Of a stretch of 64,000 nt of DNA, positions 30,191 to 36,032 are shown piece after piece. Position 1 is the first letter of the stretch. Each line of letters begins with the position of its first letter. This DNA comes from Eledone cirrhosa (taxonomy: Eukaryota): the NCBI GenBank assembly GCA_964016885.1, contig OZ024741.1, positions 371,194,001 through 371,258,000 on the forward strand, given 5' to 3'. A model generated the notes under the pieces. That model worked only from the letters and a program-made list of their open reading frames with translations, was not told the DNA's origin and did no database searches. The translations under genes were made by a program, and so were the position numbers.

Positions 30191-30213
30191 TAGACATTTT
30201 ATTTCTCATTCTT

Positions 30214-30249
30214 TCTTCTGATGAAGGACTAGCGTCCGAAACGTTAAGA
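30214..30249 (+). ncRNA. Minimal hammerhead ribozyme motif
   Basis: TCTT-CTGATGA-aGGAC tagc GTCC-GAA-ACGT-T-AAGA, with palindromic ACGT in place of stem III. Decayed copies at ~53865-53900 and ~57225-57262. Confidence 0.7.
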
Positions 30250-30391
30250 TCTTCTTCCTGCTATATCAAGCGTTAACCTAATATATACCTTCCATATACT
30301 GTACCGATTGTGTTGTTATTTCTGTTTACCTTTTACATACATATATATATATATATATATATATATATATATATATATATATATATATATA

Positions 30392-32417
30392 TATTAGTGA
30401 AAAAGAACAAAGGAACTATTATGACATTATAACAAGTTTATTCCTGATAGCCGTTTCGTACGACCATATGGTGGGACTTTTCAAGGCATATAACATGTGA
30501 TTGTAATATCATTATTTACATCAACGCTTTGGATAGCGTAGACGCCGGACCATACCCGCAAATATATACCCTGATCTGTCTTGAATATACAGGGCTGACG
30601 GAATATGGATAACACGACCACCATCTAAGCTGGAACCGACCCATACAGCAAACAAAGAGGGGACAGCCCTTCACATTTGACCAGTCGCGTGTGGGCTTGG
30701 AGTTCGTAATACACCACCCCAGTCAAATCCACACTGGTTTTTTTTACCAATATAGCATGTAGACCAATACATCCTATGTAGCGAGACCTTGGATTTGGAA
30801 CTGGCAGGCTGATCTATCGCAAACGCGTGCAACCCCCAAAACTAAAAGATCGAACGGACCACACCCAGCAACCACTAGCTATTTGATCCACCGGTACATT
30901 TCCCAGAGAGTCCACACAGCTGATAGTGAACCCCAGTTGATCCGTGAACTATGAACTTTTAAACAAGACCAACTGTGCCTGGAGCTATGCAGATGACTAC
31001 ATACGCATAATGGATATCGCACCCACAAGGTCACCAGTACTATTCATCCTGCTGTATGTATGTAAATATCCGTGCGCGGGATATCCCTGAGTACATTTTC
31101 TTGACCATCAATTAATTGATTGTTTGTTAATTGGGCAGGAATATAACATTAAGTCTGTGTTAATCCTATGTGTTGCTGTATGTGTGTAAAGTATCCGAGC
31201 GCGGGATATCCCTGAGCAAATTTTGCCTGACTGTTAATAGTGTATTGATTACTTGTTAATTAGGCAGGAATATATTATTATGTCTTTGTTAATCCTTAAT
31301 TTTTTGATAGTACATTATTAGATTACTGAAGCTACCTTATACCTTCTTAAAAATACATTTTATAATTATTGTCTTTTTGCTTATGTATTTTCTTATTTAC
31401 CACTTTCTTTAATCTTGCCCAACTTGATAAACTCTTTGAATTGCTCCCTAATTAAATTACTTAAATTACTTAAATTATTGTATCTATTATGCCTAAGTTG
31501 TATCTGTTGAAGCAGCCCTTTGAAAATTCCTCGGATATCCCAAATACCGTAATTTTTAACTTTTAATGTATAGTTTTCCTCAATTCGTTTATATATATCC
31601 TTAAGGGCTCTCTAAAATTTTAATTCTTCGAAGGGTCCCTCGGAGGAAGCTCCTATAAAAAATATTAAAGGGGCCTTTTCTGAGAGATTTATTGAAGGCT
31701 CTTTGAATTAACCTTTAATTGATTAGTTTCTTTCAACTTAGTAGGGAATATCAAAACCTCGTAAGTTTTCTGAAATTTGTTAACGTGATCTCGGGGAAGG
31801 TTTTTTTCTTTCGAAAAAAAATTTTTTCTATCGAAGGAATTTCTTAGCAAACTTTATATTTTTAGGGAAACTCTATATTTTTATTTTTTTATTTTATTTT
31901 ATTAGCCTCTTAATTTCTCCTAGTTTATTAGGTTTATTGGAGCCTGTAAGCTTTATGCACTTATTGAGGGATTTTTTAAGGTGCTTCTACGGGATCCCAA
32001 GTCTTCTAATTTAATCTTTACTTTTAATGCGTAAATTATATATTATCTAATCTCTAACCTTCAATCCCTGACCCCGACAACTAATATAAAAGAGCCCCCT
32101 TAGAATATAGACCCCAACTATACAAGCGAAGCTGCTGATGTATACCACAATTTCAAACTGCTAGTCTTGAGTGATACGTTGATGTAAATAATGATCTTAC
32201 AATCACATGTTATATGCCTTGAAAAGTCCCACCATATGGTCGGACGAAACGGCTGTCGGCAATAAACTTGTTATAATGTCATAATAGTTCCTTTGTTCTT
32301 TTTCACTAATATTTCTGCTCTGCTTACACGCATAGAGCTTAACTAGCTACCGTCACAAATTTGGTAGGTCAGACGTGATCATCGCGATTCACATACGACC
32401 TACCATACATCTTGTTT
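30392..32417. mobile_element. Penelope-like element with 135-bp inverted pseudo-LTRs, bounded by (TA)n
   Basis: Inverted arms at 30392-30526 and 32177-32312 each contain a hammerhead followed by AATAAA. A unique 3' tail runs 32313-32417, and an internal ~125-bp tandem duplication lies at ~31054-31296. Confidence 0.75.
32215..32261 (+). ncRNA. Hammerhead ribozyme, U3:A8 core variant
   Basis: TGCC-TTGAAAA-GTCC caccatatggtc GGAC-GAAA-CGGCTG-TC-GGCA followed immediately by AATAAA. A decayed inverted copy lies at 30443-30488. Confidence 0.75.
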
Positions 32418-33643
32418 ATATATATATATATATATATATATATATATATATATATATATATATATATATATATATATATATATATAAATATATATATATA
32501 TATATATATATATATATATATATATATATATATATATAAACAAGATGTATGGTAGGTCGTATGTGAATCGCGATGATTTAATTTATATATATATATATAT
32601 ATATATATATATATATAAGTAGTTCCACAACAGTAATGGTGAACTAACTGTTGTGGAACTATTTCTACCAAACTCGTCCTATGGATTGAGTGGTCTGCTA
32701 CTATATATATATATATATATATATATATATATATATATATATATATATATATATATATATATATATATATATATATATAAATTAATAAAAATAATGAATA
32801 AAAACAAAGAAACAGTTACTTATATTAAAAAATTCATCATTTTACGATCGTTTCTAGGATATATATGTGTGTGTTGGTATGTATATCATATAGATCTATG
32901 TAAAATGTTTACAAACTATCAGAGGGAATATACATACCTACACATATATATGCTGTCTTCAGAAATAATGATATTTGTTTATTGAAAAAAACCAACAAAG
33001 ATTTAATATAATAGGTCTGTTTGGGAACAGGTTTTGAATTGACCAATAGAAAGGTAGTAAGTGGTCAAGATGATAGAATAGTAGTAATAGAAATTTAATT
33101 TAGGGGTAGAGGAAAGCAGACTTCAGTTTTGAATGGAAAGAGTATTTTGAATGAAAAGATTACTTTGGGGATGAAAATAGGTCAAGCCGGTGAAAGGTAC
33201 ACGAAGAATTGATGTTATAAAAGAATAATGCTAGTGTTAAAATCTAAGGAGAATAAAATTTTACGATAAATGTGTTTGTGAAAAATATCAATCTTATTTA
33301 AAACATAAGGAATTTACATCTATAAAAAGAAAATAAATTAATTTAATTGATAGGTATATTTATATTGATAAATTTATATTAATTCATATAGATATCATAA
33401 ATAAGAGTTAGATGTAATTGAAGAATGTTGTTAAAAACGAAAGAAAAAAATAATAATTGGGGGGTAAATGTATTAGTGAGAAATAACAAATTTATATAGA
33501 TTACAAGGAATATAGATTCATAACCTGAAATTAAAATAGCTGTAAAAGGGAAATAAAATTATGCAGTTCATTAGTAGTAGAATATTAATTATAGGTTAAC
33601 TAATTTAAAATTTTTTTTATTATAATAATTTGTAAAGTGTATA

Positions 33644-33898
33644 TTAATTAGGTTTATAATATTTAAAAGTTCTTCTAATTGTATGATTACATGATATAAT
33701 TAATTCTTGTCGCTTATTTAATAGGATATCCTTAGATTTCATTATTTCAAAAAGTTCCTGGGAACATAATCTACATTCATATCTATTATTTTGATAAGGG
33801 GTGGCCCTTTTGAGCACACTCCAGGTCAGGTTATAATCGATATTCTTTTTTCTATAATTATTAATTATTTCAGCTAAGGATGTTGTATTAGCTAACCT
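33644..33898 (-). pseudogene. C-terminus of Penelope/Neptune-type GIY-YIG endonuclease
   Basis: Stop-free frame RLANTTSLAEIINNYRKKNIDYNLTWSVLKRATPYQNNRYECRLCSQELFEIMKSKDILLNKRQELIISCNHTIRRTFKYYKPN*, fitting the PLE pattern W.IL.....Y......C.LC..E......LLNKR.EL...C.H. It is absent from the ORF track. Confidence 0.85.
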
Positions 33899-34485: not shown

Positions 34486-34623
34486 TCATTATTTCTGAAG
34501 ACAGCATATATATGTGTAGGTATGTATATTCCCTCTGATAGTTTGTAAACATTTTACATAGATCTATATGATATACATACCAACACACACATATATATCC
34601 TAGAAACGATCGTAAAATGATGA
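34486..34623 (+). ncRNA. Hammerhead ribozyme with ~100-nt extended stem II
   Basis: 9-bp stem I (TCATTATTT/AAATGATGA), CTGAAGA core, a long imperfect hairpin, and GAA-ACGATCGT-A (GUA site). Minus-strand copies at 32834-32971 and 63823-63964. Confidence 0.75.
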
Positions 34624-34902
34624 ATTTTTTAATATAAGGAACTGTTTCTTTGTTTTTATTCATTATTTTTATTAATTTATCTTGACTCTGTTTTCCTGTA
34701 TTTTTCATCGAAAAAATTTTGAATACATCTTCTCTTTTCATGATATTTGGATTACATTGAGTTCTTCATACGGATTGGACACTACCGTATATTTTGGTAG
34801 ATTTATCTACATATATATATATATATATATAAAGAAAAAAAAATGAAATCGAAATTGCAACTGGAGTCTTATTTAAAAAAAAATATATATATTTATTTGG
34901 TT

Positions 34903-34940
34903 CCTTTACCGGTTTCGCAGTTCTTCTGCTTTTCAGATGG
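34903..34940 (-). ncRNA. Decayed minimal hammerhead motif
   Basis: CTGAAAA-GCAG aagaa CTGC-GAA-ACCGGT-A followed by AATAAA. G8 and stem I are mutated. Confidence 0.5.
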
Positions 34941-35342
34941 AGGGTCTGTGGTTTTTCTCACATCTGGTTGGTTTCTGAATGTTACTTGTTTTATATGGAA
35001 AAAAGTGGCTCGAAATCCCAGGTTTTTAGAGAAGTAATTTGATTGGTTGGTCAATAATTATAATAAATGTTACGCCAGTTCGCGTTACAAAGTTCTTCAA
35101 ACAGGGGGGGGGGGGGGGGGGGGGGGGGGGGAGCACAGGTTGTTTTTTTCATATATGAGTGATTGAATTTCTTTTTACTTAAAAAATGGGGCTCACGAAG
35201 GCTTTTTTTTAATTAACGTAATTTGATTGGTTATAAATGAAATTATATATATATATATAATTTCATTTATAACCAATATATATATATATATATATATATA
35301 TATATATATATATATATATATATATATATATATATATATATA

Positions 35343-35925
35343 GGTATGTATGTATACGTACATACATATATGCATACAGACGTACAGTAGCATGCATATA
35401 TATATATATATATATATATATATATATATATATATATATATACATACAGGCACACATATATATATGTACGTATCAGTTTAGCGGACATTTATTATAATGT
35501 TCGCTTTGTCCGTTTGTAAACAAACGGACAGCCTGATTTATGCCGTACGGTGTTAAGGCAACCACGTCACCTTTTTGTTCAACACTGACACAGGAACGAT
35601 GTACTAGTTTCAAGCTTGTTAAGCTATCGTCAGCACCGTATACCCTTCTGCCAGATGGTTGAACGTTCGAAAGTATATACTTTCCTTATGAAAATTAACG
35701 GCTGAGCAGCCTAATTTGCATATCGAGTGAGTTCAGTCGGCCAGGCGCACCGAAAACGAGAAAATAGAATAGAATGAAATGAAGCGGACATTATAATAAA
35801 TGTCCGCTAAACTGATACGTACATATATATATGTGTGCCTGTATGTATATATATATATATATATATATTTATATATGCATGCTACTGTACGTCTGTATGC
35901 ATATATGTATGTACTTATACATACA
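35343..35925. mobile_element. Fold-back element with microsatellite-containing inverted arms
   Basis: Arms at ~35343-35506 and ~35781-35925 are inverted, a hammerhead lies in the loop, and the element is embedded in (TA)n. Confidence 0.65.
35597..35638 (-). ncRNA. Minimal type I hammerhead ribozyme
   Basis: CGGTG-CTGACGA-tAGCTT aac AAGCTt-GAA-ACTAGT-A-CATCG, with palindromic ACTAGT and a GUA site. Confidence 0.8.
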
Positions 35926-36032
35926 TACTTACATTTAAGTAAGTGCCGTACTAAGAGTGAGAAATGAAATTTCATTTCATTCTATTCCATTATATATATA
36001 TATATATATATAATGGAATAGAATGAAATGAA

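What the first reader, a model, noticed from the sequence alone, without database searches (positions are those of the whole stretch)
30200..36030. Island of unrelated hammerhead-ribozyme fold-back retroelements strung together on (TA)n tracts
Seen: in ~5.8 kb, at least five sequence-unrelated modules (30200-30340, 30392-32417, 32777-34810, 34830-35240, 35343-35925) each carry a hammerhead motif, and a hairpin module without one lies at 32617-32702. Each is separated from the next by (TA)n, and one retains a GIY-YIG C-terminus. Established: Penelope-like elements (PLEs) carry hammerheads in their pseudo-LTRs, form inverted ends, and some favour microsatellites. Inference: several PLE/retrozyme families share a (TA)n landing pad, and each insertion leaves (TA)n on both sides, giving a self-growing ribozyme island. 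The ORF track misses this entirely.
Basis: partly seen in the sequence, partly recalled or inferred. Interest (0 to 1): 0.85.

Follow-up and report, generated by a model that had tools for sequence, protein, structure and literature searches.

The report
Penelope retroelement ends piled on (TA)n
This stretch is a pile of broken tail ends from six different jumping-gene families, each family carrying a predicted self-cutting RNA motif, stacked on a TA repeat they likely all target; the kind is known, but this genome holds at least 160,000 such motifs and the ends follow a rule that likely shows how the elements copy themselves in.

Summary
The island is six independent insertions on (TA)n. Four are 5'-truncated 3' ends of Penelope-like elements (PLEs): M2 and M3 Hydra clade, M1 and M4 with a Neptune/Nematis-type linker. 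M5 is a retrozyme-like tandem unit; the hairpin is the tip of a sixth hammerhead family. All are high-copy. Five hammerheads are intact (one U3-A8, two with a 101-nt stem II), two are mutated. Hydra PLEs with hammerheads and (TA)n preference are published, also for Octopus, so the kind is known, and such piles are common here (2 of 40 sampled 10-kb stretches). Corrections: (TA)n on both sides holds for head-to-head copies only (simple 5' junctions 18 of 50), and no net TA synthesis is needed. New here: a genome-wide pattern finds 176,422 hammerhead cores against 13,719 controls, above the 126,247 printed for axolotl. In 30 of 32 head-to-head insertions, plus 3 of 3 in the island, one arm ends at the short site and the other at the tail site; in 9 of 25 neither arm contains the other. 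This favours two primings on RNA over DNA fold-back. Cleavage, expression and junction reads are untested or inconclusive.

The parts
30197..30336 (+). M1: last 140 nt of a PLE family with Neptune/Nematis-type linker; simple 5' truncation behind a SINE-like tail (SINE label recalled)
   Evidence: 1061 first-look candidates; RT and GIY-YIG frames upstream on the same strand in L016/L141; map
30214..30249 (+). M1 minimal type I hammerhead, palindromic stem III
   Evidence: strict motif in most family loci
30341..30394 (.). (TA)n between M1 and M2
30391..30526 (-). M2 inverted arm, ending at the short site (-102); hammerhead copy mutated
30524..32414 (+). M2 main arm: last 1.9 kb of the long 3' UTR plus 102-nt tail of a Hydra-clade PLE
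   Evidence: 1256 candidates; ORF ends about 2.6-2.7 kb upstream of the tail end; intact 877-aa frames
32215..32261 (+). M2 type I hammerhead, U3-A8 core variant
32417..32537 (.). (TA)n
32541..32577 (-). 37-nt inverted copy of the M2 tail end, tail-to-tail across the TA tract
32617..32702 (+). M6: head-to-head hairpin made of the 3' tip of a sixth hammerhead family; hammerhead lost by truncation; (TA)n on both sides (32584-32617, 32702-32779)
   Evidence: 635 candidates; upstream hammerhead seen in longer copies; hairpin z -5.4
32777..33895 (-). M3 left arm: endonuclease end, 3' UTR, hammerhead; ends at the short site (-129)
33644..33925 (-). GIY-YIG C-terminal frame (93 aa) with the Hydra CxxC...LN.R.E...CxH pattern
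32834..32971 (-). M3 hammerhead, 101-nt stem II insert (left copy)
33902..34810 (+). M3 right arm, ending at the tail site (0)
   Evidence: 4222 candidates
34486..34623 (+). M3 hammerhead, 101-nt stem II insert (right copy)
34811..34830 (.). (TA)10 joining M3 and M4 tail-to-tail
34828..35244 (-). M4: 3' end of a second PLE family with Neptune/Nematis-type linker, short end (-63); oldest module (about 89-92% to nearest copies); mutated hammerhead at 34904-34940
   Evidence: 2307 candidates; RVT_1 (below gathering score) and GIY-YIG Pfam hits upstream in L149
35244..35341 (.). (TA)8, a 16-nt inverted copy of M4's 5' junction, then (TA)33
35342..35783 (-). M5 left arm: retrozyme-like unit with internal (TA)n at 35396-35441, short end; intact hammerhead at 35597-35638
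   Evidence: 2293 candidates; 701 exact copies of the family's 37-nt hammerhead
35789..35990 (+). M5 right arm, ending at the tail site (57-nt tail)
35991..36031 (.). (TA)11 and a 19-nt inverted copy of M5's tail end

Best explanation
The island is a stack of six separate insertions of hammerhead-bearing families (four Penelope-like elements, one retrozyme-like unit, one unassigned tip) lying on (TA)n tracts, and it likely grew as each element's endonuclease cut an existing TA tract and left TA on the outer side of every 3' end. Shown: family identity, copy number, parent ORFs for M1-M4, TA adjacency, two fixed 3' ends per family, one of each end in head-to-head copies. Inferred mechanism: a (probably dimeric) RT-GIY-YIG protein nicks both strands in the self-complementary tract; one 3'-OH primes reverse transcription at the proximal (short) site of the element RNA and the other at the distal (tail) site 57-164 nt further on; both cDNAs run toward the RNA's 5' end, stop early and are joined head to head. 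If only one priming succeeds, a simple truncated copy results. The two TA halves remain targets for the next family. M5 would be moved in trans by such a protein. The hammerheads ride along in the pseudo-LTR; they would need to pair as dimers or be protein-assisted, and their cleavage is untested.
For: Parent ORFs on the hammerhead strand for M1-M4; Hydra motifs DKT, CxCX5C, no CCHH, CxxC/CxH match PMC8557442 section 11, which says almost all Hydra families insert in (TA)n. Hammerheads point at TA: 23 of 30 vs 16%. 3' ends at TA/CA 106 of 111. One short plus one tail end in 19 of 20 (p 2e-5 against 0.5) and 11 of 12 M5 cases outside the window, and in the island's M2, M3, M5. Neither arm contains the other in 9 of 25, the island's M3 among them; in 5 of those the tail arm stops at or before the short site. 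Arms closer to each other than to any other held copy in 14 of 23 (9 of 10 in the youngest family). TA sums match length-weighted tracts. In vitro, a PLE protein cuts and extends both strands and starts at two RNA sites that bound the tail (PMC11167929).
Against: No clean empty site was found, so pre-existing TA is inferred from lengths only. 32 of 50 simple 5' junctions lack TA, which needs target loss or cuts at tract edges. Arm-arm identity was tied in 2 and lower than the best other copy in 7 of 23. PMC11167929 saw no strand difference in start-site use in vitro. Loci were the top-scoring hits, not random copies, and end pairs were called automatically (one has a 1-kb insert between arms). 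Other-family hammerhead density in flanks is only 73-231 per Mb against 78 per Mb in the background. No parent ORF was found for M5 or M6. Junction reads were inconclusive.
Confidence: 0.8

Rival explanations
1. Same families, but the inverted arms arise by DNA fold-back or self-priming (one arm copied from the other), as the first reader's title implies and as proposed for Adineta Penelope.
For: Arms are near-identical in young copies; many short arms nest inside the long arm; junction palindromes are argued as self-priming in PMC3846280 (passages read). The short tail-to-tail palindromes across TA tracts (32378-32577, 35227-35275, 35972-36031) do look like DNA fold-back.
Against: In 9 of 25 cases neither arm contains the other, and in 5 they barely overlap or do not overlap; copying DNA would not by itself stop at the family's second fixed site in 30 of 32 cases.
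Confidence: 0.15
2. The elements make or lengthen the (TA)n themselves by telomerase-like repeated copying at initiation, so the landing pad is a product of insertion.
For: Strong 3'/5' asymmetry (82 of 87 vs 18 of 50 for M1-M3); 24 of 30 M1 junctions begin with variable ATAC/AC repeats before the TA; priming sites show TA microhomology; about 6% of sampled DNA is TA-dominated tract.
Against: TA sums around head-to-head insertions are no longer than length-weighted background tracts (p 0.66); only 25 of 229 sampled tracts have a detectable hammerhead pointing at them; mixed CA/TA microsatellites are common here anyway. The background itself includes tracts next to PLEs, which weakens this test.
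Confidence: 0.2
3. The island is an assembly chimera of unrelated repeats joined at TA tracts.
For: All junctions are TA tracts; no laid contig spans the M3-M4 junction (where that stretch was skipped as repeat).
Against: Tracts are 16-121 nt in a 416-Mb scaffold with no N in the island; cross-family TA junctions recur at many other loci with different partners; three island modules obey the short/tail rule; arms differ by 0.6-4% so they are not read mirror images.
Confidence: 0.05
4. The island is a selected or co-mobilised composite unit, for example a multi-ribozyme transcript.
For: Seven hammerhead copies in 5.8 kb; one other-family end plus TA plus M5 junction occurs at two loci (L118, L123).
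Against: Modules differ in age (89-99% to nearest copies), face both ways, two hammerheads have decayed, and no other hit carries the same neighbours; similar density occurs in 2 of 40 background stretches.
Confidence: 0.03

Closest known systems
Hydra-clade PLEs, incl. Hydra-1_Obim of Octopus bimaculoides (Craig et al. 2021, PMC8557442)
   Same: C-terminal GIY-YIG without CCHH, CxCX5C linker, DKT, canonical hammerhead near the 3' end, (TA)n insertion, inverted 5'-truncated copies, tail at one end.
   Different: Described Hydra elements are mostly under 3 kb and few outside cnidarians; here units are about 4.2-5.2 kb with 3' UTRs of 1-2.7 kb, tails of 102-164 nt (30-40 nt in the paper), RCR/RWR instead of RWK, 43,017 first-look RT candidates and many intact 832-877-aa frames; the hammerhead sequences differ from Hydra-1_oBim's.
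Neptune/Nematis PLEs
   Same: M1 and M4 parents have a CX4CxxC linker before a GIY-YIG with the internal CxxC, and minimal palindromic-stem-III hammerheads; microsatellite bias is hypothesised for Neptune (PMC8557442).
   Different: Clade not resolved by a tree; DKG motif not found in the copies held.
Minimal hammerheads of metazoan PLEs (Cervera and de la Pena 2014, PMC4209133)
   Same: Type I, extra unpaired base after A9, palindromic stem III, U3-A8 covariation, opposite-strand pairs 100-700 bp apart.
   Different: Stem II inserts of 50-116 nt in several families here; none of that size in the parts of that paper or of the Craig hammerhead table that I read.
Non-LTR retrozymes (Cervera and de la Pena 2020, PMC7229834; Li et al. 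2026 preprint 10.64898/2026.07.22.740005)
   Same: M5 is a non-coding tandem unit with one type I hammerhead per unit, in a genome rich in PLEs.
   Different: Unit 445-614 nt with an internal variable (TA)n, longer than the 150-450 bp described; it shows PLE-style short/tail ends and head-to-head inversions; circular RNA untested.
Poseidon of Anolis (PAc; Frangieh et al. 2024, PMC11167929)
   Same: Two RT start sites bounding the tail, both strands cut and extended, AT-rich target, predicted dimer.
   Different: Different clade; that paper reports no strand difference in start site and, in the parts read, does not count short/tail pairing in inverted copies.

Membership tests
EN+ Penelope-like element (M1-M4 parents) | Single ORF with RT followed by C-terminal GIY-YIG on the strand of the 3' end | tested here: met
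   M2: intact 877-aa frame; M3: RT-to-EN frames; M4: RVT_1 E 1.6e-6 (below gathering) and GIY-YIG E 4.6e-8 in broken frames; M1: RT motifs and GIY-YIG E 0.005 in broken frames
EN+ Penelope-like element (M1-M4 parents) | Pseudo-LTR formed by partial tandem | tested here: met
   M2: L221, L222, L144; M3 tail end runs on into an RT frame in L073, L085. Not shown for M1 and M4
EN+ Penelope-like element (M1-M4 parents) | Type I hammerhead in the pseudo-LTR | tested here: met
EN+ Penelope-like element (M1-M4 parents) | Optional tail at one end; inverted 5'-truncated copy | tested here: met
   M2, M3, M4; no second end identified for M1 among top hits
EN+ Penelope-like element (M1-M4 parents) | RT phylogeny within PLEs | not tested
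   no reference sequences held; PDB search gave nothing; homologues mostly unnamed
Hydra clade (M2, M3) | CxCX5C linker | tested here: met
Hydra clade (M2, M3) | No CCHH in the endonuclease; CxxC and CxH around the conserved E and N | tested here: met
   (M2 full frame; window's M3 fragment)
Hydra clade (M2, M3) | DKT in place of DKG | tested here: met
   M2; M3 copies held do not reach this region
Hydra clade (M2, M3) | N-terminal RWK motif | tested here: inconclusive
   RCR in the M2 copy, RWR in the sister family at the same position
Hydra clade (M2, M3) | Insertion into (TA)n | tested here: met
   27 of 29 and 26 of 29 3' ends
Neptune/Nematis (M1, M4) | CX2-5CxxC linker before GIY-YIG, with CxxC inside the core | tested here: met
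Neptune/Nematis (M1, M4) | DKG motif and tree position | tested here: inconclusive
   DKG not found in the broken copies scanned; no tree
Non-LTR retrozyme (M5) | Tandem units each with a type I hammerhead | tested here: met
   20 of 21 spacings 445-614 nt; arrays L151, L152
Non-LTR retrozyme (M5) | No coding capacity | tested here: met
   no linked endonuclease motif upstream of M5 hammerheads except one belonging to a neighbour
Non-LTR retrozyme (M5) | Unit of about 150-450 bp | tested here: inconclusive
   at or above the upper limit because of the internal TA tract
Non-LTR retrozyme (M5) | Expressed as linear and circular RNA; self-cleaves | not testable with these tools
   no RNA holder listed
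Type I hammerhead ribozyme | Core C3(U)UGANG8(A)A, GAAA, UH with stems I-III | tested here: met
   stem I changes keep pairing among M5-like copies
Type I hammerhead ribozyme | Rfam gathering score | tested here: not met
   0 hits; best 20.1 of 34 bits. Filed as minimal PLE-type variants by descriptor, not as Rfam members
Type I hammerhead ribozyme | Self-cleavage | not testable with these tools
   needs in vitro assay

The most novel reading that the evidence does not exclude
This genome holds the densest hammerhead load yet counted in an animal (160,000 to about 380,000 cores in 3 Gb, 17 or more families, some with 50-116-nt stem II inserts), driven by a still-young Hydra/Neptune PLE bloom on (TA)n, and its inverted insertions record a fixed mechanism: the two nicked target strands prime at two different sites of the same element RNA, one each, which explains the PLE tail and inverted pseudo-LTR in one step and also moves retrozymes.
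Probability: 0.5. Interest if true: 0.65.

Novelty: new member of a known kind. Interest (0 to 1): 0.45.

Why it matters
The island itself is ordinary for this genome and its parts are of published kinds. Two by-products matter. First, the count: at least 160,000 hammerhead cores exceed the largest figure I found in print (126,247, axolotl, PMC7229834), in a group where my searches found no genome-wide hammerhead survey. Second, how PLEs form tails and inverted repeats is a stated open question (PMC8557442); the one-short-one-tail rule and the non-nested arms give a genome-scale test between double priming on RNA and DNA fold-back, and intact 832-877-aa Hydra frames give material for a first biochemical test of that clade's (TA)n targeting.

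Tried and rejected
Rfam at gathering score: nothing; E-value hits were AT-rich miRNA noise. First descriptor missed minimal hammerheads and was rewritten (vs 9). Pfam on window frames: nothing; Pfam also misses Hydra frames; PDB sequence search: nothing. MITE/DNA-transposon reading of the inverted arms (considered from recall): rejected because arms are 3' ends of RT elements of variable length. My early labels 'Neptune' for M2/M3 and 'Poseidon' for M1/M4 (in the notebook) were corrected after reading the clade definitions. Empty-site search among held loci: 5 of 228 blocks gave paired flank hits, none a clean empty site. Sequencing runs: no RNA holder listed. Laying four runs on 33440-35100 showed the M3 family in a second organism but no piece spanning the junctions; the M3-M4 junction was skipped as repeat. 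Tail-to-tail palindrome count was swamped by low-complexity flanks (21 of 267 raw, about 5 with complex flanks by eye). One search's M5 end count failed through an orientation bug and was redone. About 9 M4 rows mark an internal CA repeat, not a 5' junction, so M4 is left out of the 5' count. Earlier-findings look-ups returned nothing. The young family's hammerhead candidate has a C3-A8 mismatch and a long insert and was not validated.

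
Full report
Setting. The window is G000:C2:371194001-371258000 in a 3.0-Gb genome. I take it for an octopod from recalled SINE sequences and because the best named homologues of its PLE protein are from Argonauta; that label is inference. The island lies between a SINE-like tail on the left and an RTE-like LINE fragment on the right (both labels recalled).

Observation. Rfam finds nothing at gathering score and one weak Hammerhead_1 hit. 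A descriptor allowing minimal type I forms finds M1, M2 and M5: 3 hits against a shuffle mean of 0.007, 0 of 300 shuffles reaching 3. M3 has two hammerheads whose stem II carries a 101-nt hairpin insert, with a 9-bp stem I and a palindromic stem III, kept in 26 of 30 loci. M4's copy and M2's inverted copy are mutated; M4's family motif is intact elsewhere. The hairpin at 32617-32702 is the 3' tip of a sixth family whose longer copies carry a hammerhead just upstream. Short minimal hammerheads do not fold as such by free energy alone, as expected of motifs thought to work as dimers (PMC4209133).

Families. First-look candidates were 1061, 1256, 4222, 2307, 2293 and 635 for M1-M6; only 40 of each were scored. 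Upstream on the hammerhead strand, M1-M4 join RT and GIY-YIG frames. M2 has intact 877-aa frames in partial tandems with DKT, CxCX5C, no CCHH and CxxC/CxH around the conserved E and N; M3 shares the linker and endonuclease pattern. These define the Hydra clade in PMC8557442 section 11, which says almost all such families insert in (TA)n; its supplement lists Hydra-1_Obim from Octopus bimaculoides with (TA)n preference and a hammerhead. M1 and M4 have a CX4CxxC linker and the internal CxxC, the Neptune/Nematis pattern; no tree was built. M5 occurs in tandems (20 of 21 spacings 445-614 nt), has 701 exact copies of its 37-nt hammerhead and no linked ORF: retrozyme-like. No parent was found for M6.

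TA link. In 40 evenly spaced 10-kb stretches (39 on the four largest contigs) the wider descriptor found 31 hits, 4 of them from one satellite, and 0 in 200 kb of shuffles; 23 of 30 evaluable hits have (TA)6+ within 250 nt downstream against 16% of random points. Among top-scoring family loci, 106 of 111 3' ends abut a TA/CA run; simple 5' junctions abut TA in 9 of 27, 5 of 10 and 4 of 13 for M1-M3 (M4 left out, see Tried and rejected; the 3' test allowed CA, the 5' test did not), against 10% background. So both-sided TA holds when both outer ends are 3' ends: every identified end of 16 young Hydra copies but one runs directly into TA, the exception after a few extra letters. Summed TA around 29 head-to-head insertions (median 113 nt) matches length-weighted background tracts (129 nt, p 0.66), and about 6% of the sample is TA-dominated tract. 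Splitting of existing tracts suffices. No clean empty site was found, so repeat synthesis is not excluded.

How special is the island? Other-family hammerhead density near family copies is 73-231 per Mb against 78 per Mb in the background; 221 hits fall in 33 clusters, 17 seen at two or more loci. Three of 40 background stretches reach 4-5 hits within 5.83 kb, one through the satellite, leaving 2. Piles like this should number in the thousands (extrapolation).

Genome-wide load. The pattern core + 8-36 nt + GAAA + 6 nt + TA, with no pairing required, matches 176,422 times against 13,719 for the reversed pattern; the bare core matches 572,587 times against 189,099. The structure-checked sample (27 per 400 kb without the satellite) extrapolates to about 200,000. 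The reversed pattern is an imperfect control. The largest printed figure I saw is 126,247 for axolotl (PMC7229834). Searches for octopus or cephalopod with hammerhead ribozyme, octopus genome with Penelope and Hydra clade with cephalopod returned no survey of this kind; the 2026 O. vulgaris repeat annotation counts 31 recently active Penelope-like families without treating ribozymes in the parts read (PMC13282606). The library lacks most subscription papers, and a recalled 2017 paper on small PLE-associated hammerheads that cleave as dimers was not retrieved.

Mechanism of the inverted modules. M2-M5 and a young sister Hydra family each have two fixed 3' ends, 102, 129, 63, 57 and 164 nt apart, and M6 about 25; the tail is sequence that runs on toward the ORF in tandems. 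In head-to-head insertions one arm ends at the short site and the other at the tail site in 19 of 20 (9.5 expected under independence) and in 11 of 12 M5 cases outside the window; the island's M2, M3 and M5 all comply. Inversions whose arms did not end at either site in the locus were not counted. In 9 of 25 mapped cases neither arm contains the other (one more ambiguous, one unresolved), the island's M3 included, and in 5 the tail arm stops at or before the short site. Arms are closer to each other than to any other held copy in 14 of 23, tied in 2, more distant in 7. Pure DNA fold-back cannot make non-nested arms; two primings on RNA can. This fits PMC11167929, where a PLE protein cut and extended both strands and began at two sites bounding the tail, though it saw no strand difference. 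That the tail is often at one end only is already stated in PMC8557442; a search for twin priming with Penelope found no paper making this link. That both primings use one RNA molecule, and that the protein is a dimer, is inference.

Artefact. Laid runs neither confirmed nor broke the junctions. Recurrent cross-family TA junctions elsewhere, short tracts and rule-abiding ends argue for a real locus.

Papers seen. PMC8557442: abstract, passages, section 11, supplement part 2 and search hits. PMC4209133: parts 1-2 of 4. PMC11167929: parts 1-2 of 4. PMC13282606: parts 1-2 of 3. PMC7229834 and PMC3846280: passages. Preprint 10.64898/2026.07.22.740005: part 1 of 5 and passages; its supplements were not seen and may list invertebrate counts. 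Arkhipova 2006 only as cited by others.

Verdict. Real, correctly spotted, of a known kind; interest rests on the genome-wide hammerhead load and the end-pairing rule.

Noticed in passing
window 37962 (-), 63572 (-), 63955 (-), 3785 (-): Four more type I hammerheads outside the island: three other families and a diverged M3-like copy with a 105-nt insert. A weaker candidate sits at 44166 (+).
   Followed up: partly
L224-L239 (e.g. G000:C2:170172200-170181200): A very young Hydra-type family: 16 of 16 fetched copies have an intact 832-aa frame, 97-99.7% alike, 4.2-kb unit, 164-nt tail; its hammerhead candidate is atypical (C3-A8, long insert).
   Followed up: partly
G000 genome-wide: 43,017 first-look candidates for the Hydra-type RT, with several subfamilies at 68-98% identity and many frames without stops.
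   Followed up: partly
L152 (G000:C14:25412000-25421999): An array with 11 M5 hammerheads in 10 kb and a higher-order period near 4.7 kb: a satellite grown from the retrozyme-like unit.
   Followed up: no
window 32378-32577, 35227-35275, 35972-36031, 36700-36958; L158, L177, L182, L039, L051, L133: Short tail-to-tail palindromes centred on (TA)n, some with non-PLE flanks; possibly hairpin repair at TA cruciforms.
   Followed up: partly
L157, L161, L162, L164, L177, L181 and others: Several hammerhead families with stem II inserts of 50-116 nt, and some with odd-length near-palindromic stem III like Hydra-1_oBim's.
   Followed up: partly
window 31050-31296: A 129-nt two-copy tandem inside M2's 3' UTR, present in other M2 copies.
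   Followed up: no
window 9305-10384: Twelve copies of a 90-nt tandem repeat at 97% match, length divisible by three.
   Followed up: no
L118:1034-2554 and L123: The same other-family end, TA tract and M5 start occur together at two loci, hinting at a composite unit that moved as one.
   Followed up: no
L150: Helicase-like frames (PIF1/Helitron label recalled) beside an M4 copy.
   Followed up: no
run X5: M3-family sequence is also held by a second organism, with its short end running into TA.
   Followed up: no
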